DNA of 64,000 bases. It comes from Escherichia coli. Lineage in GTDB: Bacteria > Pseudomonadota > Gammaproteobacteria > Enterobacterales > Enterobacteriaceae. Position 1 is the first letter of the stretch. Every line of letters starts with the position of its first letter. A program made the translations under genes and the position numbers. Below the pieces are notes generated by a model. The model saw nothing but the letters and a program-made list of their open reading frames with translations. It did no database searches and was not told where the DNA came from. This document shows, piece after piece, positions 23,564 to 36,520 of this stretch. Where the stretch lies: assembly GCF_030384885.1 (NCBI RefSeq), contig NZ_CP128613.1; one strand, given 5' to 3'.

Positions 23564-24256
23564 CTAGTGATAACCACACGCGGTCATAAAATCCGTAATC
23601 GCTTTTTCTGCATCAACCAGCACCTTTTCCAGTGGCTGATTGGCGTCGATATCAACCAGTTGTGCACCACCAAAGGTTAACTGTGGCGTTATGGCAATCT
23701 TTCTCGCCAGCGATTCCCGTTTATGGTCGGGTTTACGCGCGCAGGCAACTTCAAGGTCAACATTGAGTTTGATAACCAGATCAGGCTTATGGCTCGCCAT
23801 CCAGTGAAATGCTTTACGTTCCTGGCTTGCCAGCCATGAGACAAACCGGCCGCCTTCAACGTTAGGTGGGAACACCGTACCATCGTAAGCGCCAGGAATT
23901 TGGTCCTGAGGATAACGATCGGTTAAGACAATCAGCCCGCGACGACGACAGGCGAGCATATGACGAAAGCGTAACAGTCGGCGGGCGACGAAAGCGGTGA
24001 TCACCAGGGCCGGAACCGGACCCGGCAATTTTTTTGCCGTTTTCACTTCATTTTTTTCAATAGTCTTGTGCAGAGACTTTCCCATCAACGGTAATTTTGT
24101 CACTGCACGACCGACATTTCCGGCCTGTTTTCCTAAATGAACTCTTTCGGCAGCACCATATTTTTCGACAACGGTAATAAGATGTTCACACACCGTTGAC
24201 TTGCCTGAACCATCGCTACCAATAACGGCAATTAATGGAGGTGTTATTGACTGCAT
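23564..24256 (-). CDS. yghT: P-loop NTPase (Walker [11 protein letters not shown]), YghR/S/T paralog family
   Basis: Track ORF 230 aa; shares Walker A, DRYPQ and ARKPDH motifs with the two downstream paralogs. Confidence 0.88.
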
Positions 24257-24429
24257 GAATATATCCTTAAATTTAAATATCCATCAAAAATATTTATTTG
24301 GTTAATATGTTTTTATGAAAGCGTAATTCAGGTCAATGTCACAATTAACCATTGTCACAATAAGGTTGAACGGATATTCTGAGCACGGACCACGTAATAT
24401 TCAATACATTATTTTCTGCCGGGTTTTTC

Positions 24430-25143
24430 GTGAATCAACGTAATATGTCAATAATTAATTCCACGCCAGTGCGTGTTATTGCCATTGTAGGATGTGATGG
24501 TTCAGGTAAATCGACCCTCACGGCAAGCCTAGTAAATGAACTGGCAGCAACAATGCCAACAGAACACATTTATCTCGGGCAATCGTCCGGGCGAATTGGC
24601 GAATGGATTTCACAGCTCCCTGTTATTGGCGCACCTTTTGGGCGTTATCTGCGAAGTAAAGCGGCACATGTGCACGAAAAGCCCTCCACACCGCCTGGCA
24701 ATATTACTGCGCTGGTTATTTATCTGCTTTCCTGCTGGCGGGCGTATAAGTTTCGCAAAATGTTGTGTAAAAGCCAGCAAGGCTATCTGCTCATCACCGA
24801 CCGCTACCCGCAGGTTGAAGTGCCGGGTTTTCGCTTTGATGGCCCGCAACTGGCAAAAAACACGGGCGGTAACGGCTGGATAAAAATGTTAAGACAGCGC
24901 GAGCTCAAACTTTACCAATGGATGGCGTCTTATTTGCCCGTATTGTTGATTCGTCTTGGCATTGATGAACAAACCGCGTTTGCGCGTAAACCTGACCACC
25001 AACTGGCGGCGTTACAGGAAAAAATCGCTGTTACGCCGCAACTGACATTCAATGGCGCAAAGATCCTTGAACTGGATGGTCGGCAACCAGCCGATGAAAT
25101 TCTGCAAGCGTCACTACGCGCAATTCACGCCGCGCTTTCCTGA
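24430..25143 (+). CDS. yghS: P-loop NTPase (Walker A VGCDGSGKST), YghR/S/T paralog family
   Basis: Track ORF 237 aa, GTG start. Confidence 0.88.
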   Translation: MNQRNMSIINSTPVRVIAIVGCDGSGKSTLTASLVNELAATMPTEHIYLGQSSGRIGEWISQLPVIGAPFGRYLRSKAAHVHEKPSTPPGNITALVIYLLSCWRAYKFRKMLCKSQQGYLLITDRYPQVEVPGFRFDGPQLAKNTGGNGWIKMLRQRELKLYQWMASYLPVLLIRLGIDEQTAFARKPDHQLAALQEKIAVTPQLTFNGAKILELDGRQPADEILQASLRAIHAALS

Positions 25144-25173: not shown

Positions 25174-25932
25174 ATGGATGCACTACAAACACAAACTGTT
25201 AATAGTACAACCGCGCCGCAGCCCAACTACATTCCGGGGCTGATTGCGGTGGTCGGGTGTGATGGCACCGGTAAATCCACACTGACCACTGACCTGGTGA
25301 AATCGCTGCAACAACACTGGCAAACCGAGCGCCGCTATCTGGGGCTGCTCTCCGGCGAAGACGGCGACAAAATCAAACGGTTGCCGCTCGTTGGCGTCTG
25401 GCTGGAACGGCGACTGGCGGCCAAATCCTCGAAAACCCAAAGCATGAAAACCAAATCTCCGGCGCTATGGGCGGCGGTGATTATGTACTGCTTCTCGCTG
25501 CGAAGAATGGTGAATCTACGCAAGGTTCAGCGACTGGCGCAAAGTGGCGTTCTGGTGGTCAGCGATCGCTTCCCGCAGGCTGAAATTTCGGGCTTTTATT
25601 ATGACGGACCGGGGATTGGCGTCGAGCGTGCGACCGGGAAAATCAGCATGTTTCTGGCACAGCGCGAACGGCGTTTATACCAAAAAATGGCGCAATACCG
25701 TCCTGAATTAATTATTCGTTTGGGGATTGATATTGATACTGCCATCTCCCGCAAGCCTGACCATGACTATGCCGAGCTGCAGGACAAAATCGGTGTCATG
25801 TCGACGATTGGCTATAACGGCACAAAAATTCTTGAGATTGATTCCAGAGCGCCCTACAGCGAAGTGCTGGAACAGGCACAGAAGGCGGTTTCTCTGGTTG
25901 CAATCGTTTCTGACCGCCGAAGTTTAACTTAA
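25174..25932 (+). CDS. yghR: P-loop NTPase (Walker A VGCDGTGKST), YghR/S/T paralog family
   Basis: Track ORF 252 aa MDALQTQTVNSTTAPQPNYIPGLIAVVGCDGTGKST... Confidence 0.88.
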   Translation: MDALQTQTVNSTTAPQPNYIPGLIAVVGCDGTGKSTLTTDLVKSLQQHWQTERRYLGLLSGEDGDKIKRLPLVGVWLERRLAAKSSKTQSMKTKSPALWAAVIMYCFSLRRMVNLRKVQRLAQSGVLVVSDRFPQAEISGFYYDGPGIGVERATGKISMFLAQRERRLYQKMAQYRPELIIRLGIDIDTAISRKPDHDYAELQDKIGVMSTIGYNGTKILEIDSRAPYSEVLEQAQKAVSLVAIVSDRRSLT

Positions 25933-25977: not shown

Positions 25978-27327
25978 TTGGCGGGGTTTAACATCAAACA
26001 TTGGTTTGCAGATGGCGCGTTTCGCACCATTATTCGCAATAGCGCCTGGTTAGGCTCCAGTAATGTCGTGAGCGCTTTGCTGGGTCTGTTGGCGCTCTCG
26101 TGTGCCGGTAAAGGGATGACGCCCGCCATGTTTGGCGTACTGGTGATTGTGCAATCGTACGCCAAGTCGATCAGCGATTTTATTAAGTTTCAGACATGGC
26201 AGCTGGTGGTTCAGTACGGAACGCCAGCCTTGACCAATAATAATCCGCAGCAATTTCGCAATGTCGTCTCATTTTCCTTCTCGTTGGATATCGTCAGCGG
26301 CGCGGTGGCGATTGTCGGCGGCATTGCCTTACTCCCTTTTCTTTCCCATTCATTAGGTCTGGATGACCAAAGCTTTTGGCTGGCAGCGCTGTATTGCACG
26401 CTCATTCCTTCAATGGCTTCCTCCACACCGACCGGCATTCTGCGTGCGGTAGATCGCTTCGATTTGATTGCTGTACAGCAGGCGACGAAACCTTTTCTGC
26501 GCGCAGCGGGGAGCGTCGTAGCCTGGTATTTTGATTTTGGTTTTGCGGGTTTTGTTATTGCCTGGTACGCATCGAATCTGGTTGGCGGCACCATGTACTG
26601 GTGGTTTGCCGCGCGCGAATTACGCCGCAGAAATATCCATAACGCCTTCAAATTGAATCTGTTTGAGTCTGCCCGACACATTAAAGGCGCGTGGAGTTTT
26701 GTCTGGTCAACCAACATTGCCCACTCCATCTGGTCGGCACGTAACTCGTGCAGCACAGTGTTGGTGGGGATCGTGTTAGGACCCGCTGCCGCCGGGTTAT
26801 TTAAAATCGCCATGACATTCTTCGATGCCGCCGGAACGCCAGCGGGTTTACTGGGCAAAAGTTTTTACCCAGAGGTAATGCGTTTAGATCCGCGTACCAC
26901 CAGACCGTGGTTGTTAGGCGTGAAGTCCGGTTTACTGGCGGGCGGAATCGGTATTCTGGTGGCGCTCGCGGTGTTGATCGTCGGCAAGCCGCTCATTTCG
27001 CTGGTGTTTGGCGTTAAGTATCTCGAAGCGTATGACCTGATTCAGGTAATGCTTGGCGCAATTGTGATTTCGATGCTGGGCTTCCCACAGGAGTCATTGC
27101 TATTGATGGCGGGAAAACAGCGCGCTTTTCTCGTGGCGCAAACCATCGCCTCAATCGGCTACATCGTATTGCTGTTCATGTTCTGTCATCTGTTTGGCGT
27201 GCTGGGGGCTGCATTTGCTTACTTCGGTGGGCAATGTCTGGATGTGGTGCTCTCGTTAATTCCAACCTTAAAGGCATTTTTTCAGCGCCATTCCTTGCTT
27301 TATAACGCAGCCGGAGAGAAATCCTGA
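25978..27327 (+). CDS. yghQ: polytopic inner membrane protein, MOP/Wzx-type flippase-like; start codon uncertain (first ATG in frame at 26116)
   Basis: Track ORF 449 aa (non-ATG start at 25978); many hydrophobic helices; stop overlaps next gene start (TGATG). Confidence 0.8.
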   Translation: MAGFNIKHWFADGAFRTIIRNSAWLGSSNVVSALLGLLALSCAGKGMTPAMFGVLVIVQSYAKSISDFIKFQTWQLVVQYGTPALTNNNPQQFRNVVSFSFSLDIVSGAVAIVGGIALLPFLSHSLGLDDQSFWLAALYCTLIPSMASSTPTGILRAVDRFDLIAVQQATKPFLRAAGSVVAWYFDFGFAGFVIAWYASNLVGGTMYWWFAARELRRRNIHNAFKLNLFESARHIKGAWSFVWSTNIAHSIWSARNSCSTVLVGIVLGPAAAGLFKIAMTFFDAAGTPAGLLGKSFYPEVMRLDPRTTRPWLLGVKSGLLAGGIGILVALAVLIVGKPLISLVFGVKYLEAYDLIQVMLGAIVISMLGFPQESLLLMAGKQRAFLVAQTIASIGYIVLLFMFCHLFGVLGAAFAYFGGQCLDVVLSLIPTLKAFFQRHSLLYNAAGEKS

Positions 27328-28151
27328 TGATGAGAAAATATTTCCCGCTTGAGGCGAGCGAGCGTCTATTTATTGCAGTTGAAGAAGATGATGTCGTTGA
27401 TGCGCAGGTCAGTTTACCGCCGACTATCGCAACAGGTTGTACCACCGAAATCATTCATGATAATTACGCGTTATGCCTGCAATTCTGGCTGAATGGCGTT
27501 GATCGTCAGGAATTACTGCGTTTAATCCACAAACAAGCCAAAGGCGAGGGGCTTACGGCTGACGAGCGTAAACAGTTTAAATATATGCGGGCGCGTTATA
27601 AGCATCTGCGTTTCGCTCAGCGACTGTATCTGAAAAAACACAAGGCAGGATTTTTATTCGGCAAAACGACGGTATGTCTGGGCCATTTTCAGGATGGTTT
27701 CCGTAACGGTAAAAAAAATATTGTGTCGTATTACGGCAACCTGTTACGGATTTATTTAAGCTCTCCGGTCTGGTCGTTGGTGAACTATTCATTACGCCAT
27801 AGCCAGTTAGAAAGCGTAAGCGGTTTTATTGCCTATCGGCAAAAGCAAATGCATACCCTGAAAGAGATAATTGCCAAACCGCGACTAACCGGCAGGGAAT
27901 TTCATGATGTGCGAAAAATCATCAGCCAGCAGGTTTCTTATTACGACACCCTAAGATCGCTTGATCCTGAAAAAAAAGAAGCGTTACAGATTTCCCGCTT
28001 CCTCGCCGCCATTAATGGCCTGATGGGGGATAAACACGACGACATGGTGGCGGATGATATGGAAAACCGCCAGTCGTATGATGCACCGATGGCGCTGGAT
28101 AGCGATATTCGTCAGCGCTTAGAACTGCTGATTTCGCGTTTTCCGCTATAA
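27327..28151 (+). CDS. hypothetical soluble protein, no recognisable motif
   Basis: Track ORF 274 aa MMRKYFPLEASERLFIAVEEDD...; start overlaps yghQ stop; codon usage protein-like. Confidence 0.6.
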   Translation: MMRKYFPLEASERLFIAVEEDDVVDAQVSLPPTIATGCTTEIIHDNYALCLQFWLNGVDRQELLRLIHKQAKGEGLTADERKQFKYMRARYKHLRFAQRLYLKKHKAGFLFGKTTVCLGHFQDGFRNGKKNIVSYYGNLLRIYLSSPVWSLVNYSLRHSQLESVSGFIAYRQKQMHTLKEIIAKPRLTGREFHDVRKIISQQVSYYDTLRSLDPEKKEALQISRFLAAINGLMGDKHDDMVADDMENRQSYDAPMALDSDIRQRLELLISRFPL

Positions 28152-28159
28152 CCGGAGCA

Positions 28160-28723
28160 ATGATGTCATCTCGTTTGATTATTGCGCTGATTATCATGCT
28201 CTTAGCCCCGGGTGTGCAGGCACACAATTTCGTCACGGGTAAAACGGTTACCCCTGTTTATATCCAGGAAGGCGGCGAGCTGCTTCTGAATAGCGACGAC
28301 GAAATTCACTACCAAAAGTGGAACAGCACACAGCTGGCGGGAAAAGTCCGCATTATTCAGTATATCGCCGGGCGTAAGTCGGCGAAGAAAAAGAACTCAC
28401 TGTTAATTAAAGCGGTTGAAGCGGCAAACTTTCCGCAGGATCGTTTTCAGCCCACCACCATTGTGAACACCGATGATGCCATCTTTGGTACTGGCTATTT
28501 TGTCGTTGGCAAAATCGAAAAAAATAAACGCCGCTATCCGTGGGCGCAATTCGTTATTGACGGCAATGGACAGGGACGCGTTGCCTGGCGGTTGCCGGAG
28601 CAGAGTTCAACCATTCTGGTGCTGAATAAAGCCGGGCAAATTCAGTGGGCAAAGGACGGCAGCCTGACGCCGGAAGAGGTAGATCATGTCATTGCGCTGG
28701 CGCAGAAGCTGATCAATGAATAA
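28160..28723 (+). CDS. YtfJ-family periplasmic protein (paralog of core ytfJ), signal peptide MMSSRLIIALIIMLLAPGVQA
   Basis: Track ORF 187 aa; collinear similarity to remembered E. coli YtfJ (shared stretches VVQYIAGR.., TTIVNTDDAI, YPW.QFV.D, WAKDG.LTPEEV). Confidence 0.75.
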   Translation: MMSSRLIIALIIMLLAPGVQAHNFVTGKTVTPVYIQEGGELLLNSDDEIHYQKWNSTQLAGKVRIIQYIAGRKSAKKKNSLLIKAVEAANFPQDRFQPTTIVNTDDAIFGTGYFVVGKIEKNKRRYPWAQFVIDGNGQGRVAWRLPEQSSTILVLNKAGQIQWAKDGSLTPEEVDHVIALAQKLINE

Positions 28724-28752
28724 AAATTCAAAGGATTGAGGGCGTTAGTGAG

Positions 28753-29823
28753 ATGAAGCTGGTTGAACACTACATCATGCGTGGTACTCGCCGTCTGGTG
28801 CTGATTATCGTCGGTTTTCTGATCTTTATTTTCGCCAGCTACTCCGCACAGCGTTATCTGACCGAAGCGGCAAATGGGACATTAGCTCTTGATGTTGTGC
28901 TGGATATTGTTTTCTACAAGGTGCTGATTGCACTGGAGATGTTGTTACCTGTTGGACTGTATGTGTCAGTTGGCGTGACGCTAGGGCAGATGTATACCGA
29001 CTCGGAAATTACCGCTATTTCTGCGGCGGGGGGGAGTCCGGGACGCTTGTACAAAGCCGTTCTTTATCTGGCGATACCGCTAAGTATTTTTGTCACCCTT
29101 CTGTCGATGTATGGTCGTCCGTGGGCTTATGCGCAGATTTATCAACTGGAGCAACAGTCGCAGTCGGAGCTGGATGTTCGCCAGTTGCGGGCAAAGAAAT
29201 TTAACACTAACGATAACGGACGAATGATCCTTTCGCAGACGGTTGATCAGGATAATAATCGCCTGACTGACGTGCTGATTTATACTTCTACTGCCAATCG
29301 AACCCGTATTTTCCGCGCCCGTTCGGTTGATGTAGTTGACCCATCACCCGAGAAACCGACCGTTATGTTGCATAACGGGACCGCCTATCTTCTCGATCAT
29401 CAGGGACGTGACGACAACGAACAGATCTACCGTAATCTGCAATTGCATCTGAATCCGCTGGATCAAAGCCCTAACGTCAAACGCAAAGCAAAATCGGTCA
29501 CGGAGCTGGCGCGCTCCGCCTTTCCTGCCGATCATGCCGAACTGCAATGGCGACAAAGCCGTGGCCTGACAGCATTGTTGATGGCGCTGCTGGCCATTTC
29601 ATTAAGTCGGGTAAAACCGCGGCAAGGGCGATTTTCAACGTTATTGCCACTGACGTTGCTGTTTGTTGCCATTTTTTATGGCGGCGACGTCTGCCGTACG
29701 CTGGTGGCTAACGGCGCGATTCCCCTCATTCCTGGTTTGTGGTTAGTACCCGGACTCATGCTAATGGGCCTGCTGATGCTGGTCGCACGCGACTTCTCTT
29801 TGCTGCAGAAATTTTCCCGATGA
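28753..29823 (+). CDS. LptF-like permease (YjgP/YjgQ family), paralog of core lptF
   Basis: Track ORF 356 aa; N-terminal TM bundle, conserved YTDSEITAISAAG segment resembling LptF LYTESEITVMHACG, large periplasmic insert, C-terminal TMs. Confidence 0.8.
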   Translation: MKLVEHYIMRGTRRLVLIIVGFLIFIFASYSAQRYLTEAANGTLALDVVLDIVFYKVLIALEMLLPVGLYVSVGVTLGQMYTDSEITAISAAGGSPGRLYKAVLYLAIPLSIFVTLLSMYGRPWAYAQIYQLEQQSQSELDVRQLRAKKFNTNDNGRMILSQTVDQDNNRLTDVLIYTSTANRTRIFRARSVDVVDPSPEKPTVMLHNGTAYLLDHQGRDDNEQIYRNLQLHLNPLDQSPNVKRKAKSVTELARSAFPADHAELQWRQSRGLTALLMALLAISLSRVKPRQGRFSTLLPLTLLFVAIFYGGDVCRTLVANGAIPLIPGLWLVPGLMLMGLLMLVARDFSLLQKFSR

Positions 29824-30899
29824 ATGTTTTCAGTCGCTATTTAATCCGTCATCTCTTTCTCGGTTTTGCCGCCGCCGCAGGGCTATTGCTGCCGCTTTTT
29901 ACTACCTTCAACCTGATTAACGAACTGGATGATGTCAGCCCGGGTGGTTATCGCTGGACTCAGGCGGTGCTGGTGGTGCTGATGACCTTACCGCGCACAC
30001 TGGTCGAACTTTCGCCGTTTATCGCCTTATTGGGGGGGATTGTCGGCTTGGGGCAGTTATCGAAAAACAGTGAGCTTACCGCCATTCGCAGCACGGGGTT
30101 TTCTATCTTCCGTATTGCACTGGTGGCGCTGGTTGCCGGGATATTGTGGACTGTTTCATTAGGCGCGATAGATGAGTGGGTGGCGTCGCCATTGCAGCAA
30201 CAGGCGCTGCAAATCAAATCGACTGCCACTGCGTTGGGGGAGGACGATGACATTACCGGCAATATGCTGTGGGCCAGGCGTGGTAATGAATTTGTGACGG
30301 TGAAATCGCTGAACGAGCAGGGCCAGCCGGTGGGCGTGGAGATATTTCATTACCGCGACGATCTCTCGCTCGAATCCTACATTTATGCACGCAGTGCCAC
30401 CATTGAAGACGACAAAACGTGGATCCTGCATGGTGTGAATCATAAAAAATGGCTGAATGGCAAAGAAACGCTGGAAACATCTGATAATCTTGCCTGGCAA
30501 TCGGCCTTCACCAGTATGAATCTTGAAGAGTTATCGATGCCGGGAAATACTTTTTCTGTCCGTCAACTTAATCATTACATCCATTATTTGCAGGAAACCG
30601 GGCAACCCAGCAGCGAATACCGCCTTGCACTGTGGGAAAAACTGGGACAACCCATCTTGACCCTGGCGATGATTTTGCTGGCTGTGCCGTTTACCTTTAG
30701 TGCCCCGCGTTCGCCTGGGATGGGTAGCCGTCTCGCTGTAGGCGTCATCGTGGGCTTACTCACCTGGATCAGCTATCAAATCATGGTCAATCTGGGATTG
30801 CTATTTGCGTTGAGCGCACCTGTTACCGCGCTCGGTTTACCGATAGCGTTTATGCTGGTGGCGTTGAGCCTGGTGTATTGGTATGACAGTCAACATTAA
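29820..30899 (+). CDS. LptG-like permease (YjgP/YjgQ family), paralog of core lptG
   Basis: Track ORF 29739..30899; start trimmed to MNVFSRYLIRHLFLGF (359 aa), ATGA overlap with upstream permease; segment NSELTAIRSTGFS resembles LptG. Confidence 0.8.
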   Translation: MNVFSRYLIRHLFLGFAAAAGLLLPLFTTFNLINELDDVSPGGYRWTQAVLVVLMTLPRTLVELSPFIALLGGIVGLGQLSKNSELTAIRSTGFSIFRIALVALVAGILWTVSLGAIDEWVASPLQQQALQIKSTATALGEDDDITGNMLWARRGNEFVTVKSLNEQGQPVGVEIFHYRDDLSLESYIYARSATIEDDKTWILHGVNHKKWLNGKETLETSDNLAWQSAFTSMNLEELSMPGNTFSVRQLNHYIHYLQETGQPSSEYRLALWEKLGQPILTLAMILLAVPFTFSAPRSPGMGSRLAVGVIVGLLTWISYQIMVNLGLLFALSAPVTALGLPIAFMLVALSLVYWYDSQH

Positions 30900-30933
30900 A
30901 CCCGCCGTGGCGCAGCACCACAGCGGGCTCACA

Positions 30934-32106
30934 TTACTGCTTCAGAGTAGCAAATGCCTGAATGATGGCATCGATTTGCTCACGAGTGTGGGCAGCGTTT
31001 ACGCTACAGCGCAGCAGCGTGATGCCTGCAGGCGCGGCAGGTGGCAGGATAAGATTCACATAAACGCCCAGCGAAATAAGCTCGCGCCAGATGCGTAAAC
31101 CTTCCTCTTTCGAACCGATTATCACTGGCACTACCGGGCTAATATGTGAACTTAACTCGTAACCCAGTTTTTGCAGACCGTCATACAGATGGTTGGCGTT
31201 ATCCATCAGCTTTTGCCGCAACTCTGGTTGTGAGGCAATGGTTCTTAACGACGAGCGCACGGTCGCAATGCAGGACGGAGAAGGAGAGGCGGTAAAAATA
31301 TACGGGCGGCTGCCGTAGCGCAGCACTTCCATCGCTTCCGAACCGACAGCAAAACCGCCAATCGAGGCCAGACTTTTACTGAAAGTACCAACGATAATAT
31401 CCACATCATCTTCAACGCCAACGGCTTCAGCCAGTCCGCGCCCCGTTGCGCCTAACACGCCAAACGAATGCGCTTCATCGACAATCAAATAACCACCGAG
31501 ACGACGTTTGATATCAACAATTTCCGCCAGCGGCGCAATGTCACCGAGCATACTGTAGATGCCTTCAACGATGATAATCGCCTCTTTTGCCCGTTCACCG
31601 AGGCGAACCATGCGCCGTTCCAGATCTTTAGCATCGTTATGGCGGAAACGAATAATTTCCGCTCCACCGAGAGAACAGGCGTCATAAATACTGGCGTGGC
31701 TGTCGGCATCCAGTAACACTACGGCGTTATGGTCGGCAAGTGCGCTGATGACACCTAAATTAGCGGTATAACCGGTTGAAAAAACGATAGCGGTAGGGCG
31801 ATTGAAAAACTCGGCAATTTCTTTCTCTAACGCCAGATGTGGCGCATAGCTGCCATTAGCCATACGAGAACCGGTAGTGCCGGTGCCTTGGGCCGCTAAC
31901 GCTGCCTGACCTTCGGCGATGGCATCATGATTGAAGGTTAAACCGAGATAATTATTGGTCCCGGCCAGGATCACGTTTTTATCGCCGATCCGGCCTTCGG
32001 TGGCGGAATACACTTCATCAATACAGGTACCAAACGGCGTTAACCCGTTGTCACTAAATTGCAGTCGCTCGCCAGCAAGGCGCGCATATTTATCGTATAG
32101 CCCCAT
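30934..32106 (-). CDS. PLP-dependent alpha-oxoamine synthase, serine palmitoyltransferase-like (third AOS paralog besides bioF and kbl)
   Basis: Track ORF 390 aa; PLP-lysine motif IVGTFSKSLASIGG, DEAHSFG motif, glycine-rich GTGTTGSR segment; TAATG overlap with upstream ACP. Confidence 0.85.
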   Translation of the reverse strand: MGLYDKYARLAGERLQFSDNGLTPFGTCIDEVYSATEGRIGDKNVILAGTNNYLGLTFNHDAIAEGQAALAAQGTGTTGSRMANGSYAPHLALEKEIAEFFNRPTAIVFSTGYTANLGVISALADHNAVVLLDADSHASIYDACSLGGAEIIRFRHNDAKDLERRMVRLGERAKEAIIIVEGIYSMLGDIAPLAEIVDIKRRLGGYLIVDEAHSFGVLGATGRGLAEAVGVEDDVDIIVGTFSKSLASIGGFAVGSEAMEVLRYGSRPYIFTASPSPSCIATVRSSLRTIASQPELRQKLMDNANHLYDGLQKLGYELSSHISPVVPVIIGSKEEGLRIWRELISLGVYVNLILPPAAPAGITLLRCSVNAAHTREQIDAIIQAFATLKQ

Positions 32107-32354
32107 TATTTATTCTCCAGCCATGGAAGTAGAGTTTCCATTAATTGCGCAGGGGTTTTGACATCCAGCAGAATATTAATAGGAATGGAAATATCGAATC
32201 TGTCTTCCAGCATCATTAAGAGATCCATCACTTTGATCGACTCCAGGCCAAGATCGTTGACGAGATCGCTGTCGGGCTTAATTTCCACACCGTTTTCGAC
32301 CAAATCCTGTAAACAGGAAAGGATGTAATCCATTACTATTTCACGATTTACCAT
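32106..32354 (-). CDS. acyl carrier protein (dedicated), candidate phosphopantetheine site in DLGLESIKVMDL
   Basis: Track ORF 82 aa; acidic four-helix ACP-like sequence; position between reductase and AOS. Confidence 0.7.
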   Translation of the reverse strand: MVNREIVMDYILSCLQDLVENGVEIKPDSDLVNDLGLESIKVMDLLMMLEDRFDISIPINILLDVKTPAQLMETLLPWLENK

Positions 32355-32385
32355 AGAAACGTTAACACACCTTTAAACAAGACAA

Positions 32386-33300
32386 TCAAAATAGCCCGTT
32401 GCGTAATGCGTGTTCCAGGCTAATCCCGGGAAACCAATTAATATCTTCAGAAATACGGTTATTACTTGCTGACCAGTCGGTGTGGGTTAATTCACGGATT
32501 TTCGAGCGGGTCAGCATAGGTTCTTTACCTGCCAGGCGACTCAACGCGGTACTGATATCCGCAAGGCAGGTGAGTACCGACAGAGGAATACCAACCATTC
32601 GAACGGAACCGCAACGGGCGTCGGCGGCAAGTTGCTGTACGCGTTGCCAGTCATAGCCGCCGGCGACGCCATCGCATAATTCATAGGTTTGCGTCTGTAC
32701 AGTTTCGGCGCTTAACCACTGCCCCACGGCTTGCGCGAAATCGGTGACGTGCAGGAAAGAGAGCTGTGTATCTGGCGCACCAAGTCGTGGCAGCAGGCCG
32801 CGCAGCATCCAGTCAAACAGCGGTTTTAACTCTTTATCGCCGGGACCATACACGGCTGTCGGGCGAAAAATGCCCAGCGTAATTTCGTCAGCCATTGCGG
32901 TCAGTCGTTGTTCGGCGACGTGTTTGGAATTTGCGTACCAGGAGAGTTCGGGATGGCGCGCCGCCAGCGAAGAGATAAACAGAAAACGTTGGCAAAAGCC
33001 GCTCTCTTTTGCCGCTTGCATCAGGCGCAGGCTGCCGTCAACGTTACAGCGGGTAAAAATCTCTTCTTTGTGTCCGCGCACTTGCCCGGCGCAATGGACC
33101 ACCGCGCTGGCTCCGGCAACCAGTTCGCTAAGCGAATGTGTATCTTCCAGCGAACCGCGCACCCAGATGAGATTATCATTGACGTGAGCGCGGGCAGTAC
33201 GCGTCAATGCGCGAACGTGAAAGCCGCGGGCGAGCAGGTTATCGATAATATATTTACCGATAAACCCGGTAGCGCCCGTCACCGCGACAGTTTGATTCAT
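32386..33300 (-). CDS. NAD(P)-dependent reductase of the epimerase/dehydratase SDR type (candidate 3-keto-sphinganine/ceramide reductase)
   Basis: Track ORF 304 aa; N-terminal VAVTGATGFIGKY Rossmann motif, YANSK (YxxxK); ATGA overlap with upstream FAAL. Confidence 0.8.
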   Translation of the reverse strand: MNQTVAVTGATGFIGKYIIDNLLARGFHVRALTRTARAHVNDNLIWVRGSLEDTHSLSELVAGASAVVHCAGQVRGHKEEIFTRCNVDGSLRLMQAAKESGFCQRFLFISSLAARHPELSWYANSKHVAEQRLTAMADEITLGIFRPTAVYGPGDKELKPLFDWMLRGLLPRLGAPDTQLSFLHVTDFAQAVGQWLSAETVQTQTYELCDGVAGGYDWQRVQQLAADARCGSVRMVGIPLSVLTCLADISTALSRLAGKEPMLTRSKIRELTHTDWSASNNRISEDINWFPGISLEHALRNGLF

Positions 33301-35015
33301 GCCATTGATTCCTGCACATGAAGGCTTGCAGCATAACGTTTTTTCGCTTCCGCACGGGCAGGCTTGCCGGAGGACGTTCGGGGAATACTGTGGGGCGGCA
33401 ACAGATCGATAGCCGCTGTTACGCCAAATTCGCTTTGGATCCGTGCTGCCAGTGCGTGGATAAGCTGCCCACGACGTTCTTCGTCGCTGATCCTACACTG
33501 GATCTGCAAAATGATTTTTTCCTGGGCGGTAACAAAAGCAATCGCATCGCCAGAATGAATTTCCGGTTCCTGTTCCGCAATATATTCAATATCCTGCGGC
33601 CAGATATTACGGCCACGAATAATAATCAGATCTTTAATGCGCCCGGTGACATACAGATAACCGTCCAGCAGATAACCGAGGTCGCCGGTATCTAACCAGC
33701 CCGTCGCGGCAATCTCGTCTTGCGAAACCTGGTCGCCAAAGTAACCGCTCATCAGGCTGGGGCCGGAGATGCAAATATGGCCTACCACACGTTCCGCGAC
33801 TGGCATACCTGCTTCATTGCGGATTTCAATGCCATGTTCCGGCAACGCTTTACCGCAGTTGACGAAAGTCGATACGGCGCGTGTTTCAGCACCCGGCGTG
33901 ACGGCTTTGCCCTGATATTCAAGAATGTCGCGATCCACTTCGTTAACCACAACCCCGGAGGCTTCATCAGAGAAGCTGACAGCCAGCGCATTTTCTGCCA
34001 GTCCGTAGCACGGCATGAAAGTTTTATCGTCAAAGTTAACCTGACGGAAACATTCAGCGAATTGATGGAGTTGTTCTGCGGAGATCGGCTCAGCACCAAT
34101 ACCAGCAACGCGCCAGCAGGAAAGATCCAGTTCAGCGAGATCTTTTTCATTCACGCGGCGCTGGCACAATTCATAGCCAAACGGCGGCGCAACGGAAACG
34201 GTGCCGCGATTTTTACTGATCAATTTAAGCCATTGCAGAGGACGCATGGCAAAATCCTGAGTGCGCAAATAATCTACTGAGAGCTGCGTGGCGACGGGGG
34301 TCAGGAGAAAGCCGACCAGTCCCATATCATGGTAGAAAGGCAGCCAGGAGACGCAGCGGTCGCCAGGGCGTAATTTAATGCCATCGTGGCTTATAGCACG
34401 TAGATTAGCCATCACTTCGCGATGGGTGATAATGACGCCACGGGGAAAACGGGTGCTGCCGGAGGTGTACTGGAGGTAGGCGATATCGTTCGGAACTGGA
34501 CGCTGGAGTACAACATCGGCTTCCGGTAATGCCTTAAACCAGGCGTGGCTTAAAACATGTAATTCGGGGTTGTTATGCGTAGCAGCATTGACCAGTGGCA
34601 ACCACTCATCACCAGTGATAATGGCTGCGGGCTGGCAACTTGCCAGTAGACCCTGCAGTTTGGCGCTCCAGGAATCCCGCTGACCGACGCCCATTGGAAT
34701 TGCCAACGGGACGGCGACTAAGCCGGCATACTGGCAGGCAAAAAAAGCCTCTACAAACCCGCTACTCGTTTCGGCAATCAGCGCCACGCGATCGCCTTTT
34801 TTCAGATTCAGTGATAACAACCGCTTCGCACCAGCTTCGGCACGCGCTTTTAACGTCTGATATTCCAGTTGATCTTCAAGTTGGCAACGTCTGTCATAAA
34901 AATTCATTCCGGCGCTACTCAGAGCGGCGTAGTCCAAAGCATCAACCAGCGTTGGAAAATCGGCATAGCGCATAGGTAGGGAATGCGTAAAGATGTTATT
35001 AGACATATACACCAC
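33297..35015 (-). CDS. fatty acyl-AMP ligase / acyl-ACP synthetase (adenylate-forming); start at GTG 35015 or ATG ~35006
   Basis: Track ORF 572 aa; AMP-binding signature YTSGSTRFPRGV, second motif TGDLGY; first gene of the minus-strand operon. Confidence 0.85.
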   Translation of the reverse strand: MVYMSNNIFTHSLPMRYADFPTLVDALDYAALSSAGMNFYDRRCQLEDQLEYQTLKARAEAGAKRLLSLNLKKGDRVALIAETSSGFVEAFFACQYAGLVAVPLAIPMGVGQRDSWSAKLQGLLASCQPAAIITGDEWLPLVNAATHNNPELHVLSHAWFKALPEADVVLQRPVPNDIAYLQYTSGSTRFPRGVIITHREVMANLRAISHDGIKLRPGDRCVSWLPFYHDMGLVGFLLTPVATQLSVDYLRTQDFAMRPLQWLKLISKNRGTVSVAPPFGYELCQRRVNEKDLAELDLSCWRVAGIGAEPISAEQLHQFAECFRQVNFDDKTFMPCYGLAENALAVSFSDEASGVVVNEVDRDILEYQGKAVTPGAETRAVSTFVNCGKALPEHGIEIRNEAGMPVAERVVGHICISGPSLMSGYFGDQVSQDEIAATGWLDTGDLGYLLDGYLYVTGRIKDLIIIRGRNIWPQDIEYIAEQEPEIHSGDAIAFVTAQEKIILQIQCRISDEERRGQLIHALAARIQSEFGVTAAIDLLPPHSIPRTSSGKPARAEAKKRYAASLHVQESMA

Positions 35016-35377
35016 GAAAAAAATTGGATATCAGAAATAAAATGACAATAATGCGGTGGATTATATAGGCATAAAAGATAAATGAGATAGTATTTTCATC
35101 GGTGCGATATTGAACATTGATTTAAATAATAGGTTTGGCTTTGTTGTTTTTATTGTGAATGATATTTAATTTATGAATATATTAAGAAGAAGCCTTGTTT
35201 GGTTGCCTTAAATCGACAAAAGGCATTGAGGCGCTTCTGTGTAGTCTCTGACCTTATCTTAATTATTAATAAATACTATTTATTCTTTGTTTGTATTCAT
35301 TGGGTTGATTATTAAGATGCCGTTCGTTGCTGTTGCAATCTGTTTGTCACCGTTAATTATTTGTTATCCACAGAGAT
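35016..35377. promoter_or_regulatory. AT-rich divergent promoter region between the FAAL operon (-) and yghO (+)
   Basis: ~360 bp strongly AT-rich with A/T tracts; flanked by divergent start codons; typical of H-NS-bound, horizontally acquired regulatory regions. Confidence 0.5.
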
Positions 35378-36520
35378 ATGGAATGCGATCTGCTGATGAT
35401 TAAAATTGAAAAAGTAATTAATAAAAATGACATTAAGGCATTTATCGCTTTTCCGTCATCACTTTATCCCGATGATCCAAACTGGATACCCCCTTTGTTC
35501 ATTGAACGCAGCGAGCATTTGTCGGCGAAGAATCCGGGGACGGACCATATTATCTGGCAGGCGTGGGTAGCAAAAAAAGCGGGGCAGATAGTCGGGCGGA
35601 TTACCGCGCAAATCGATACCTTGCACCGCGAGCGTTACGGTGACGATACCGGTCATTTTGGCATGATTGACGCCATTGATGATCCGCAGGTTTTTGCCGC
35701 TTTGTTTGGCGCAGCGGAAGCATGGTTGAAGTTACAAGGTGCCAGTATGATCAGCGGGCCTTTCAGCCTGAATATCAATCAGGAAAGCGGATTACTGATT
35801 GAAGGTTTCGACACTCCGCCCTGTGCGATGATGCCGCACGGTAAACCGTGGTATGCCGCGCATATTGAACAATTGGGTTATCACAAAGGTATTGATTTAC
35901 TGGCGTGGTGGATGCAACGAACCGATCTCACTTTCTCTCCGGCGCTAAAAAAACTGATGGATCAGGTACGCAAAAAGGTGACCATTCGTTGCATCAATCG
36001 TCAGCGGTTTGCTGAAGAGATGCAGATCCTGCGTGAGATTTTCAACTCTGGCTGGCAGCACAACTGGGGATTTGTGCCGTTTACCGAACATGAATTCGCT
36101 ACCATGGGCGATCAACTAAAGTATCTGGTACCGGACGATATGATCTACGTCGCTGAGATTGGTTCTGCACCCTGCGCGTTTATTGTCGGCTTGCCGAACA
36201 TCAACGAGGCGATTGCCGATCTGAACGGATCGCTCTTTCCCTTCGGCTGGGCAAAATTGCTGTGGCGCTTAAAAGTCAGCGGTGTGCGAACTGCGCGAGT
36301 GCCGCTGATGGGCGTGCGTGACGAGTATCAGTTCAGCCGCATCGGCCCGGTGATTGCGCTGTTATTGATTGAAGCCTTACGCGATCCGTTTGCTCGCCGG
36401 AAGATCGATGCGCTGGAAATGTCATGGATCCTCGAAACCAATACAGGCATGAATAACATGCTGGAACGCATTGGAGCGGAGCCGTACAAGCGTTACCGAT
36501 TGTATGAAAAGCAGATTTAA
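35378..36520 (+). CDS. yghO: YghO, full-length; candidate N-acyltransferase (GNAT/FemAB-like fold suspected, not verified)
   Basis: Track ORF 380 aa MECDLLMIKIEKVINKNDIKAF...; position between the lipid operon and glcC. Confidence 0.75.
   Translation: MECDLLMIKIEKVINKNDIKAFIAFPSSLYPDDPNWIPPLFIERSEHLSAKNPGTDHIIWQAWVAKKAGQIVGRITAQIDTLHRERYGDDTGHFGMIDAIDDPQVFAALFGAAEAWLKLQGASMISGPFSLNINQESGLLIEGFDTPPCAMMPHGKPWYAAHIEQLGYHKGIDLLAWWMQRTDLTFSPALKKLMDQVRKKVTIRCINRQRFAEEMQILREIFNSGWQHNWGFVPFTEHEFATMGDQLKYLVPDDMIYVAEIGSAPCAFIVGLPNINEAIADLNGSLFPFGWAKLLWRLKVSGVRTARVPLMGVRDEYQFSRIGPVIALLLIEALRDPFARRKIDALEMSWILETNTGMNNMLERIGAEPYKRYRLYEKQI

What the first reader, a model, noticed from the sequence alone, without database searches (positions are those of the whole stretch)
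27327..30899. Accessory LptF/LptG-like permease pair with a YtfJ-like periplasmic protein and a hypothetical protein, convergent on the lipid operon
Four plus-strand genes follow yghQ with coupled junctions (TGATG overlap yghQ/hypothetical, ATGA overlap between the two permeases). The two permeases (356 and 359 aa) have LptF/LptG (YjgP/YjgQ) architecture but are clearly not the essential core lptFG. The 187-aa secreted protein is a YtfJ paralog. Extra LptFG-like pairs next to a lipid-biosynthesis operon suggest a dedicated system for extracting or exporting an unusual lipid from the inner membrane, analogous to LPS extraction by LptB2FG. No ATPase gene is present in the module, so it may borrow LptB or another ABC ATPase.
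Basis: partly seen in the sequence, partly recalled or inferred. Interest (0 to 1): 0.75.

Follow-up and report, generated by a model that had tools for sequence, protein, structure and literature searches.

The report
Second LptFG pair for E. coli sphingolipids
These four genes are the back half of a 13-gene sphingolipid cassette found in most E. coli but deleted in K-12, and they probably pull the cassette's lipid out of the inner membrane; this idea was published for Caulobacter in 2026, but the two small accessory proteins are unstudied.

Summary
Four intact, tightly packed plus-strand genes follow yghQ: a 274-aa protein, a YtfJ paralogue, an LptF-like permease and an LptG-like permease. 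They converge on the serine palmitoyltransferase (spt) operon.

PLoS Pathogens 2024 and a bioRxiv preprint of April 2026 describe sphingolipid-locus LptF2/LptG2 in Caulobacter. That pair uses the LPS ATPase LptB, and the preprint draws the E. coli UTI89 locus.

What I add:
- The pair travels with spt in 4,051 of the 4,103 complete E. coli genomes that carry it, and in all 13 enterobacterial loci examined. It is also on a conjugative Klebsiella plasmid and in three distant taxa. K-12 lost all of it in one IS5 deletion.
- Both permeases keep the glutamate that docks LptB. LptG2 replaces the lipid A-binding lysines K34/K40/K41 with N/D/D.
- All four genes are under purifying selection (dN/dS 0.04–0.14).
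- The "hypothetical" protein is a divergent CHAD-fold protein (a polyphosphate-binding type). It recurs with YghRST-type P-loop kinases and a YghQ-type flippase in sphingolipid-making alphaproteobacteria.
- YtfJ2 is a periplasmic thioredoxin-fold protein with no cysteines.

The lipid itself is unknown. Verdict: new member of a known kind, moderate interest.

The parts
23564..24256 (-). yghT: P-loop kinase-like paralogue 1. It is transcribed divergently from the yghS operon.
   Evidence: It has a Walker A motif, GSDGSGKST. It matches the dTMP-kinase models only remotely, at 26 bits, below the cut-off. It is present in all 13 enterobacterial loci.
24430..25143 (+). yghS: P-loop kinase-like paralogue 2, and the probable first gene of the 7-gene operon.
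   Evidence: A profile of the YghR/S/T family finds thymidylate kinases in the PDB only remotely (E about 1e-6). It matches no Pfam family, including PPK2.
25174..25932 (+). yghR: P-loop kinase-like paralogue 3.
   Evidence: The motifs DRYPQ and RKPDH are shared by all family members.
25978..27327 (+). yghQ: a MOP-superfamily (Polysacc_synt) membrane protein, the putative flippase for the lipid.
   Evidence: It matches the NCBIfam MOP flippase model weakly, and its orthologues carry Pfam PF01943/PF13440. The putative Caulobacter sphingolipid flippase CC_1166 carries IPR002797, the InterPro entry for polysaccharide-biosynthesis (Polysacc_synt) proteins. K-12 has a truncated copy ending at IS5. 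dN/dS is 0.02-0.03.
27327..28151 (+). The 'hypothetical protein': a soluble, basic, all-helical stand-alone protein with a divergent CHAD fold. Its start is coupled to the yghQ stop.
28160..28723 (+). ytfJ2: a secreted YtfJ-family paralogue with a thioredoxin fold and no cysteines.
28753..29823 (+). lptF2: an LptF-type permease.
   Evidence: TIGR04407 at 323 bits against a cut-off of 230. It aligns full-length to solved LptF chains. It is 28.8% identical to K-12 LptF. The coupling-helix residue E84 is kept, and R33 is kept. Its nearest non-enterobacterial relatives all lie beside spt. dN/dS is 0.06-0.08.
29820..30899 (+). lptG2: an LptG-type permease.
   Evidence: TIGR04408 at 308 bits against a cut-off of 240. 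It aligns full-length to E. coli LptG, PDB 6mhu_G. It is 28.2% identical to K-12 LptG. E88 is kept. K34 becomes N, D37 becomes N, K40 becomes D and K41 becomes D, while K62 becomes R and R136 becomes K. dN/dS is 0.04-0.05.
30901..30927 (.). A GC-rich hairpin in the 34-nt spacer between the convergent lptG2 and spt genes. It is a possible bidirectional terminator.
   Evidence: -15.7 kcal/mol, z -2.4. There is no T-run, so the evidence is weak.
30934..32106 (-). spt: serine palmitoyltransferase.
   Evidence: NF047599 at 600 bits against a cut-off of 500. PGAP names it spt. The E. coli BL21 enzyme has been characterised (PMC9386255).
32106..32354 (-). acpR: the specialised acyl carrier protein.
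32386..33300 (-). epi/cerR: an NAD-dependent reductase of the ceramide pathway.
33297..35015 (-). aasR: a fatty acyl-AMP ligase that acts as the acyl-AcpR synthetase. PGAP places the start at 35006.
   Evidence: NF006624 at 873 bits against a cut-off of 600..
35378..36520 (+). yghO: an N-acyltransferase, the bacterial ceramide synthase homologue (aca/cerS).
   Evidence: PMC9386255 equates yghO (ECD_02850) with Caulobacter CC_1154. It is present in every locus that extends far enough.

Best explanation
LptF2 and LptG2 form the membrane half of an ABC-type lipid extractor dedicated to the sphingolipid made by the adjacent genes.

Proposed pathway, with the status of each step:
1. AasR, AcpR, Spt, CerR and YghO make (dihydro)ceramide in the cytoplasm. 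The first three enzymes have been shown to work for E. coli BL21; the rest follows from homology.
2. The P-loop kinase-like proteins YghT, YghS and YghR, together with the CHAD-fold protein, probably build or handle a phosphorylated head group. This is inferred.
3. YghQ, a MOP-family protein, flips the lipid to the periplasmic leaflet. This is inferred from the family and from the analogy with Caulobacter CC_1166.
4. An LptF2-LptG2 heterodimer, powered by the cell's only LptB dimer, pulls the lipid out of the inner membrane. It then hands the lipid to the shared LptC/A/DE bridge or to another carrier for delivery to the outer membrane. This is inferred from the conserved coupling-helix glutamates, the absence of an ATPase gene in the locus, and the Caulobacter pull-downs.
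5. YtfJ2 acts in the periplasm at or after extraction. Its role is unknown. My best guess is a head-group-binding accessory that takes the place of the Caulobacter-specific LptC2.
For: Family and architecture:
- Both permeases exceed the curated LptF/LptG cut-offs and align end to end with solved LptF/G chains.
- The coupling-helix glutamates are kept: LptF E84 in 129 of 129 LptF-like representatives and in every LptF2, and LptG E88 in every LptG2.
- The locus has no ABC ATPase.

Substrate is not lipid A:
- LptG K34, K40 and K41 are N/T/D/E, D/E and D in every sphingolipid-locus LptG2, from E. coli to Pseudomonas sp. LS-2 and two metagenome-assembled genomes (MAGs).
- In core LptG, K34 and K40 contact the lipid A phosphates and K41 the inner core. 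K34E is lethal in core LptG (PMC6744409).

Linkage to spt:
- 4,103 complete E. coli genomes carry the four genes, and 4,051 carry at least 80% of the whole 13-kb locus in one place.
- All 13 enterobacterial loci hold the full gene set, although the spt operon is upstream in Serratia and Mangrovibacter and convergent in Escherichia, Pseudocitrobacter and Hafnia.
- The whole cassette sits on a conjugative IncFIB plasmid in Klebsiella michiganensis.
- The three nearest non-enterobacterial LptF2 relatives all sit beside aasR-cerR-acpR-spt.
- K-12 lost lptF2, lptG2 and spt in a single IS5 deletion.

The genes are functional: dN/dS is 0.04-0.14 for the four genes.

Precedent: Caulobacter LptF2/LptG2 bind each other and LptB, and can be deleted only in spt or cpgB mutants.
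Against: - No experiment has been done in E. coli, and I found no report of an E. coli sphingolipid.
- Orthology to the Caulobacter pair is not shown. Gammaproteobacterial sphingolipid-locus LptF2/G2 are only 24-25% identical to CC_1156/CC_1155, which is no closer than LptF2 is to core LptF.
- An LptF-like gene lies beside the CHAD/kinase/flippase module on an Acetobacter plasmid with no spt within 12 kb.
- A Methylomarinovum relative at 36% identity has no spt within 10 kb.
- The acidic TM1 of LptG2 is hard to reconcile with a strongly anionic substrate unless it acts by excluding LPS or through bridging cations.
- About a quarter of complete E. coli genomes do without the locus.
Confidence: 0.68

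Rival explanations
1. The yghS-to-lptG2 operon exports a different envelope molecule made by its own genes, for example a phosphorylated or polyprenyl-linked glycolipid handled by the kinases, the CHAD protein and the YghQ flippase. On this view the spt operon is only a frequent neighbour.
For: - The kinase + YghQ + CHAD core occurs without spt within 12 kb in Novosphingobium. A CHAD-plus-kinase pair occurs on a P. veronii plasmid. On an Acetobacter plasmid the core lies next to an LptF-like gene.
- MOP flippases classically move polyprenyl-linked glycans (established knowledge).
- A glycosyltransferase gene follows lptG2 on the Klebsiella plasmid.
Against: - LptF2/G2 lie next to spt in taxa that have no YghQ, CHAD or YtfJ genes.
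- The link survives rearrangement and plasmid transfer.
- Novosphingobium and Acetobacter are themselves sphingolipid producers whose pathway genes are scattered.
- The locus encodes no polyprenyl-phosphate glycosyltransferase.
Confidence: 0.12
2. LptF2/LptG2 are spare or condition-specific LPS permeases that move ordinary or modified LPS. This is what the PGAP names imply.
For: Both score above the curated 'equivalog' cut-offs for LptF and LptG and are named as such in RefSeq. The 1-phosphate contacts LptF R33, LptG K62 (as R) and R136 (as K) are retained.
Against: - LptG K34, K40 and K41 are replaced by N, D and D, and K34E is lethal in core LptG.
- Identity to the core proteins is only 28-29%.
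- At least 150 clusters from other taxa are closer to LptF2 than E. coli's own LptF is (136-694 bits against 94 bits).
- The pair is strictly linked to spt.
- K-12 makes normal LPS without the pair.
Confidence: 0.06
3. The locus is a silent, decaying remnant in E. coli with no current function.
For: - K-12 and about 24% of complete genomes lack it.
- One strain carries a frameshift in a G7 run of lptF2.
- No E. coli sphingolipid has been reported.
Against: - dN/dS is 0.02-0.14 for yghQ and the four genes within Escherichia and across genera.
- The ORFs are intact in all loci examined.
- The cassette is carried on a conjugative plasmid.
- The E. coli BL21 enzymes are active.
Confidence: 0.05
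4. LptF2/LptG2 work in the opposite direction or as a regulator. They might retrieve or import sphingolipid, or titrate LptB to couple LPS export to sphingolipid synthesis.
For: They share the single LptB (by inference and from the Caulobacter data), so competition with LptFG is unavoidable.
Against: All characterised LptB2FG complexes extract lipid outward. The Caulobacter genetics point to toxic inner-membrane accumulation when the pair is missing.
Confidence: 0.04

Closest known systems
Caulobacter crescentus LptF2/LptG2 (CCNA_01214/CCNA_01213; CC_1156/CC_1155), the sphingolipid-locus paralogues of LptFG. Sources: PLoS Pathog 2024 (PMC11324152) and bioRxiv 10.64898/2026.04.12.717747.
   Same: - An adjacent F-G gene pair lies inside the sphingolipid biosynthesis locus.
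- The locus has no ATPase gene.
- A MOP/Polysacc_synt-type putative flippase is also in the locus (CC_1166 in Caulobacter, YghQ here).
- The inferred job is the same: extracting sphingolipid from the inner membrane using the housekeeping LptB.
- The preprint itself draws the E. coli UTI89 locus and says such pairs occur in gammaproteobacterial sphingolipid loci.
   Different: - E. coli has no LptC2.
- The head-group genes differ. E. coli has three YghRST P-loop kinase-like genes and a CHAD-fold protein. Caulobacter has CpgB (a DAGK_cat ceramide kinase), CpgA, CpgC and NTP-transferase genes.
- E. coli has a YtfJ paralogue that Caulobacter-type loci lack.
- Sequence relatedness is probably low. 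Gammaproteobacterial pairs are 24-25% identical to the Caulobacter pair, so common descent of the 'F2/G2' pairs is not shown.
- Nothing has been tested in E. coli.
Core E. coli LptB2FG(C), the LPS extractor (PDB 6MHU, 6S8H and others).
   Same: The family is the same (PF03739; TIGR04407/TIGR04408). The proteins have the same length, and the hydropathy profile and full-length alignment fit six TM helices with a periplasmic insert between TM3 and TM4. The coupling-helix glutamates E84/E88 that dock LptB are conserved, and the F and G genes overlap.
   Different: - Identity is 28-29%.
- The pair is not essential (it is absent from K-12).
- LptG K34, K40 and K41 are replaced by N, D and D, LptG R133 becomes L, and LptF K30 and K322 are lost.
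- The pair sits in a lipid biosynthesis cassette rather than next to pepA.
Archaeal PPK3 operon: two thymidylate-kinase-like paralogues, a CHAD protein and PPX (J Biol Chem 2026, PMC12995831).
   Same: Paralogous proteins annotated as dTMP kinases are encoded next to a CHAD-type protein. In E. coli they also lie next to the phosphate transporter gene pitB.
   Different: YghR/S/T match thymidylate kinases only remotely and match no PPK family. The E. coli genes sit in a lipid and flippase context. No polyphosphate activity has been tested. This is a lead, not a classification.
YtfJ (b4216) / HI0045 family: TIGR01626, PF09695.
   Same: YtfJ2 is 54% identical to K-12 YtfJ. Both are secreted, both have the same invariant motifs, and neither has a known function.
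   Different: YtfJ2 is encoded directly upstream of lptF2-lptG2 in every enterobacterial sphingolipid locus, whereas the K-12 ytfJ gene stands alone.

Membership tests
LptF/LptG permease family (YjgP/YjgQ, PF03739; TIGR04407/TIGR04408) | Profile score above the curated family cut-off over the full length | tested here: met
   LptF2 scores 323 bits against a cut-off of 230, and LptG2 308 bits against 240. Both align full-length to solved LptF/LptG chains.
LptF/LptG permease family (YjgP/YjgQ, PF03739; TIGR04407/TIGR04408) | Three TM helices, then a periplasmic domain of about 150 aa, then three more TM helices; adjacent F and G genes | tested here: met
   The hydropathy peaks and the end-to-end alignment fit this layout. 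The genes overlap by ATGA. The beta-jellyroll fold itself was not modelled.
LptF/LptG permease family (YjgP/YjgQ, PF03739; TIGR04407/TIGR04408) | Coupling-helix glutamate that docks LptB (LptF E84, LptG E88) | tested here: met
   Both are conserved in all orthologues. E84 is invariant in 129 of 129 LptF-like representatives.
LPS-specific LptFG (function: lipid A extraction) | Basic residues that contact the lipid A phosphates or inner core: LptG K34, K40, K41, K62, R133 and R136; LptF R33 and K317 | tested here: not met
   K34 becomes N/T, K40 becomes D/E, K41 becomes D and R133 becomes L. K62 (as R), R136 (as K) and LptF R33 are kept. The K317 mapping depends on the alignment.
LPS-specific LptFG (function: lipid A extraction) | Essential for viability | tested here: not met
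   K-12 MG1655 and roughly a quarter of complete E. coli genomes lack the pair.
Sphingolipid-locus LptF2/LptG2 (as defined in Caulobacter) | Encoded within or next to the spt/acpR/aasR/cerR/cerS locus, with no ATPase of its own | tested here: met
Sphingolipid-locus LptF2/LptG2 (as defined in Caulobacter) | Orthology (shared descent) with CCNA_01214/CCNA_01213 | tested here: inconclusive
   I could not obtain the Caulobacter sequences. The published tables give only 24-25% identity between the Caulobacter pair and gammaproteobacterial sphingolipid-locus pairs. E. coli LptF2 is 55% identical to the Pseudomonas sp. LS-2 copy, which has the P. luteola-type gene layout.
Sphingolipid-locus LptF2/LptG2 (as defined in Caulobacter) | F2-G2 complex that binds LptB; deletion tolerated only when sphingolipid synthesis is off | not testable with these tools
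   This needs pull-downs and genetics.
Sphingolipid-locus LptF2/LptG2 (as defined in Caulobacter) | An accompanying LptC2 | tested here: not met
   PGAP annotates no LptC-like gene in the locus. The preprint itself says lptC2 is restricted to Caulobacter.
YtfJ family (TIGR01626 / PF09695) | Profile score above the cut-off; secreted protein of about 185 aa | tested here: met
   212 bits against a cut-off of 151. It is 54% identical to K-12 YtfJ and has a signal peptide.
Thiol-disulfide oxidoreductases of the TlpA/DsbE/peroxiredoxin fold | Thioredoxin fold | tested here: met
Thiol-disulfide oxidoreductases of the TlpA/DsbE/peroxiredoxin fold | Catalytic CXXC or a peroxidatic Cys | tested here: not met
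   The mature YtfJ2 has no Cys, and 40 of 48 family members examined have none. The invariant IAGRxSAKKKN stretch lies at the strand-to-helix junction where I infer the motif would be.
CHAD domain (PF05235) | Match to the sequence profile | tested here: not met
   No Pfam hit for the protein or for any of 50 homologues. A profile search of PDB sequences found nothing.
CHAD domain (PF05235) | All-helical CHAD fold with conserved histidines and basic residues | tested here: met
CHAD domain (PF05235) | Binds inorganic polyphosphate | not testable with these tools
   This needs a binding assay. The property is known for other CHAD domains (bioRxiv 10.1101/567040).

The most novel reading that the evidence does not exclude
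Enterobacterales, including most E. coli, carry a self-contained, horizontally mobile cassette for a still undescribed sphingolipid with a phosphate-rich head group. On this reading:
- The head group is built by a PPK3-like trio of thymidylate-kinase-fold proteins (YghT/S/R) working with a CHAD-fold protein that binds polyphosphate.
- YghQ flips the lipid.
- LptB2-LptF2-LptG2 extract it.
- The cysteine-free thioredoxin-fold protein YtfJ2 is a new kind of periplasmic partner in place of LptC2.
- By extension, the housekeeping YtfJ would have a matching, unrecognised role in envelope lipid traffic.
Probability: 0.15. Interest if true: 0.8.

Novelty: new member of a known kind. Interest (0 to 1): 0.5.

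Why it matters
- E. coli is the organism in which LPS transport is best understood, and most wild strains carry a second LptFG pair that the K-12 reference lacks. That makes E. coli a ready genetic and structural system for a question the Caulobacter work left open: how one LptB and one periplasmic bridge serve two different lipids.
- The natural K34N/K40D/K41D changes in LptG2 point to where substrate choice is made in this transporter class, which is an antibiotic target.
- It raises a plain, unanswered question: do E. coli, Serratia, Hafnia and relatives put a sphingolipid on their surface, and what is it? This matters for host interaction and for polymyxin and detergent resistance.
- RefSeq names these genes "LPS export permease LptF/LptG" in thousands of genomes, which is probably wrong as a statement of function.

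Tried and rejected
- The genome-contig scan with LptF2 returned only 10 loci, because the exact peptide patterns reach only close relatives. It could not fetch the Caulobacter or Sphingomonas loci, so direct identity to CCNA_01213/01214 was not measured.
- The sigma-70 promoter scan gave no more sites than shuffled sequence (13 against 15.4 expected). The only sensible site is 24352-24380, upstream of yghS. I did not use it as evidence.
- Sequence searches for the 274-aa protein (NCBIfam, Pfam, PDB, and a PDB profile search) all came back empty. Only fold comparison identified it.
- I looked for YtfJ-like or CHAD-like genes in the distant sphingolipid loci L006-L009 with HMMs and found none. 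I first concluded that the CHAD protein was specific to Enterobacterales, then rejected that after the AFDB and plasmid searches.
- I first scored LptF K317 as lost. A larger alignment places an Arg there, so I withdrew the claim.
- I considered the LptF R212-to-A/G/S change as a sign of independence from LptC, because R212G/S/C bypass LptC (PMC9972910). Only 30 of 129 LptF-like representatives have Arg at that position, so it carries little weight.
- I tested whether YghR/S/T are PPK2-like or clear dTMP kinases. They match no Pfam family, and thymidylate kinases appear only remotely.

Full report
**What is there.** The window is an E. coli chromosome segment: hyb - yghU - gss - pitB - yghT/S/R/Q ... 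yghO - glc.
- The yghQ stop and the start of the 274-aa ORF share one base (TGATG).
- The next two gaps are 8 and 29 nt.
- lptF2 and lptG2 overlap by ATGA.
- A 34-nt spacer with a modest GC hairpin separates lptG2 from the convergent spt gene.
- Upstream, yghS-yghR-yghQ are separated by only 30 and 45 nt. The likely unit is therefore a seven-gene operon, yghS to lptG2, divergent from yghT.

**Identity of the four proteins.**
- LptF2 and LptG2 exceed the curated NCBIfam cut-offs for LptF and LptG (323 against 230 bits; 308 against 240 bits). They align end to end with solved LptF/LptG chains.
- They are only 28.8% and 28.2% identical to the K-12 core proteins, which are encoded next to pepA.
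- The 187-aa protein is a YtfJ-family member (212 against 151 bits). It is 54% identical to K-12 YtfJ and has a signal peptide ending PGVQA|HNF.
- The 274-aa protein matches nothing by sequence.

**The neighbourhood is the bacterial sphingolipid pathway.** The convergent operon is aasR-cerR(epi)-acpR-spt, and yghO is the ceramide synthase homologue.
- Spt scores 600 bits on the serine palmitoyltransferase model, against a cut-off of 500.
- Padilla-Gomez et al. showed that E. coli BL21 AasR, AcpR and Spt work together to make 3-oxo-sphinganine. They noted that all five ceramide genes are clustered only in Caulobacter and E. coli BL21 (PMC9386255).

**Prior art.**
- Olea-Ozuna et al. 2024 named second copies of LptC, LptF and LptG, plus a putative flippase, in the Caulobacter sphingolipid locus as probable transport genes (PMC11324152).
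- Uchendu, Isom and Klein (bioRxiv, April 2026) showed three things. Caulobacter lptF2, lptG2 and lptC2 can be deleted only in spt or cpgB mutants. LptF2 and LptG2 co-purify. Both bind the sole LptB.
- The preprint's Figure 2B draws the E. coli UTI89 locus, and the text says such pairs occur in alpha- and gammaproteobacterial sphingolipid loci.
I found nothing on the E. coli genes themselves beyond that figure.

- Of 5,426 complete E. coli genomes, 4,103 carry at least 80% of the four-gene segment. 4,051 carry at least 80% of the whole 13-kb stretch from yghT to yghO in one place.
- K-12 MG1655 has an IS5 element where the 3' end of yghQ, the four genes, spt, acpR, cerR and aasR should be.
- In 13 enterobacterial loci every gene of the set is present: five Escherichia, three Pseudocitrobacter, two Mangrovibacter, two Serratia and one Hafnia.
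- In Serratia and Mangrovibacter the spt operon lies upstream on the same strand instead of convergent downstream. Linkage therefore survives rearrangement.
- The complete cassette is also on a 301-kb conjugative IncFIB plasmid of Klebsiella michiganensis.
- A search of 1.84 billion representative proteins shows that E. coli's own LptF (94 bits in the PDB search) is much further from LptF2 than the 150 best clusters (136-694 bits).
- The nearest non-enterobacterial relatives are Pseudomonas sp. LS-2 (55% identity) and two metagenome-assembled genomes (38% and 36%). All three have lptF2-lptG2 beside aasR-cerR-acpR-spt.
- One relative at 36% identity, in Methylomarinovum, has no spt within 10 kb.

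**Sequence clues to mechanism.**
- The coupling-helix glutamates that dock LptB are conserved. LptF E84 is invariant in 129 of 129 LptF-like representatives and in every LptF2, and LptG E88 is kept in every LptG2. The LptF coupling-helix stretch is the best conserved segment, at 11 of 21 identical residues against 29% overall.
- No ABC signature motif occurs in any reading frame of the locus.
- Tang et al. listed the LPS contacts in the cryo-EM structure and showed that LptG K34E and R136E are lethal (PMC6744409).
- In LptG2, TM1 aligns without gaps. K34 becomes N (T, D or E in other taxa), D37 becomes N, K40 becomes D/E and K41 becomes D. This holds in every sphingolipid-locus LptG2 from E. 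coli to Pseudomonas and the two MAGs.
- By contrast K62 (as R), R136 (as K/R) and LptF R33 remain.
- My reading: the pocket for the bis-phosphorylated disaccharide is dismantled, but one anion site may survive. This argues against LPS as the substrate.
- Two initial claims were weakened on a larger alignment: the loss of LptF K317, and the significance of R212 becoming A/G/S.

**The genes are in use.** dN/dS within Escherichia is 0.04-0.14 for the four genes and 0.02-0.03 for yghQ.

**The "hypothetical protein".**
- An AlphaFold2 model (pLDDT 94) is all-helical and soluble.
- Foldseek against AFDB50 finds full-length matches (TM 0.92-0.97, 25-43% identity) annotated as CHAD domain proteins. 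They come from Sphingomonas, Zymomonas, Komagataeibacter, Acetobacter, Gluconobacter, Commensalibacter and Pseudomonas veronii. Several of these genera (Sphingomonas, Zymomonas, Gluconobacter) are listed as spt carriers in PMC9386255.
- The family has 19 conserved Lys/Arg/His residues and a pI of 9.3.
- CHAD domains bind inorganic polyphosphate.

Its gene context recurs outside Enterobacterales (tblastn against plasmids; contexts):
- Novosphingobium resinovorum pSA1 has two YghRST-like genes, a YghQ-like gene (51% identity) and the CHAD-like gene (40%), in the same order as E. coli.
- Acetobacter pomorum pSH1 has a YghQ-like gene divergent from CHAD-like, YghT-like and an LptF-like permease.
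- A P. veronii plasmid has CHAD-like followed by YghT-like.

So the conserved core is P-loop kinase(s) plus a MOP flippase plus a CHAD-like protein. The 274-aa protein is not an orphan. A suggestive parallel is the archaeal PPK3 operon, which has two thymidylate-kinase-like paralogues and a CHAD protein (PMC12995831). However, YghR/S/T resemble thymidylate kinases only remotely and match no PPK family. This remains a lead.

**YtfJ2.**
- The mature protein has no cysteine.
- The invariant basic stretch IAGRxSAKKKN sits at the strand-to-helix junction (strand 63-70, helix from 75). That is where I infer, from the fold, that the CXXC motif of redox-active relatives would lie.
- The first residue after signal-peptide cleavage is an invariant His.
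- It is therefore not a redox enzyme. An anion- or head-group-binding role is plausible but untested.
- It is specific to the enterobacterial version of the locus.

**How it most likely works.**
1. Ceramide is made in the cytoplasm.
2. It is decorated, probably with phosphate, by YghT/S/R with the CHAD protein.
3. YghQ flips it.
4. LptF2-LptG2 extract it, driven by the shared LptB.
5. It passes to the outer membrane over the shared bridge, with YtfJ2 acting somewhere in the periplasmic step.

Steps 1 and 4 rest on homology plus experiments in other organisms. Steps 2, 3 and 5 are inference from context and fold. The E. coli head-group genes differ from the Caulobacter CpgABC set, which includes a DAGK-type ceramide kinase. 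The product is therefore probably a different lipid.

**Comparison and novelty.**
- Function and context match the Caulobacter LptF2/LptG2 system. Shared descent is not shown, because gammaproteobacterial pairs are only 24-25% identical to the Caulobacter pair.
- I file this as a new, untested member of a known kind.
- Three elements are, as far as I could find, undescribed: the CHAD-fold protein, the YtfJ paralogue, and the acidic TM1 signature of LptG2.
- The RefSeq names "LPS export permease LptF/LptG" are probably misleading as to substrate.

Noticed in passing
window about 29026-29032 (inside lptF2): There is a run of seven G in the coding sequence. The otherwise identical strain 2013C-4282 has six G, and RefSeq therefore annotates its lptF as a frameshifted pseudogene. 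This could be a sequencing error or a slippage-prone switch.
   Followed up: partly
window 27327-28723 (the 274-aa gene and ytfJ2): These two genes are much more variable within E. coli than their neighbours. They show 89-91% amino-acid identity to another E. coli allele, against 96-98% for yghQ, lptF2 and lptG2, and dS reaches 0.7. They coincide with a GC dip to 46-47%. Only 11 of 4,175 matching genomes are at least 99% identical to the window across the four genes.
   Followed up: partly
L010 (K-12 MG1655 3,130,146-3,131,340) against window about 27000-35400: The K-12 reference lacks the whole sphingolipid and transport block. An IS5 element (insH9) sits between a truncated yghQ and yghO. 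K-12 work therefore cannot reveal this system.
   Followed up: yes
L025 (Klebsiella michiganensis K5-3 plasmid NZ_CP106839.1, 107-122 kb): The complete 13-gene cassette, in the Serratia-type order, is carried on a 301-kb conjugative IncFIB plasmid. It is flanked by a diacylglycerol kinase gene, a family-2 glycosyltransferase gene and tra genes. A Rahnella plasmid also carries the CHAD-like gene (H43).
   Followed up: partly
L022 9242-12828; L024 10299-14790; L023 4914-6416: A conserved module recurs on large plasmids or chromids of Novosphingobium, Acetobacter and P. veronii: YghRST-like P-loop kinase(s), a YghQ-like flippase and a CHAD-like protein. In Novosphingobium it lies next to a PmrAB/QseBC-like two-component system. 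It resembles the archaeal PPK3 operon, which has two dTMP-kinase-like genes plus a CHAD gene.
   Followed up: partly
window 28160-28723, and K-12 ytfJ (L011 4709-5263): Across the YtfJ family the first residue of the mature protein is an invariant His (A|H-N/Q-F). The stretch IAGRxSAKKKN is invariant at the strand-to-helix junction of the thioredoxin fold. Either could mark a metal- or anion-binding site. The housekeeping YtfJ has no known function.
   Followed up: no
L006 57-1695 (Pseudomonas sp. LS-2): This Caulobacter-type sphingolipid locus has a DAGK-type kinase and NTP-transferase genes. It also holds two YghT/S/R-like genes (37-43% identity) next to an MsbA-like ABC transporter. The P-loop kinase family is therefore linked to sphingolipid loci beyond Enterobacterales.
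   Followed up: no
P0032 and H39: Some E. coli records show a GspM-CHAD-like fusion protein, or a yghT fragment abutting gspL. This suggests other deletion variants that join the type II secretion locus to this region.
   Followed up: no
L021 (Falsirhodobacter sp. 20TX0035, a 241-bp contig): A 241-bp contig at 0.9x coverage is 99% identical at protein level to E. coli lptF2. It is almost certainly E. coli contamination in that assembly.
   Followed up: no
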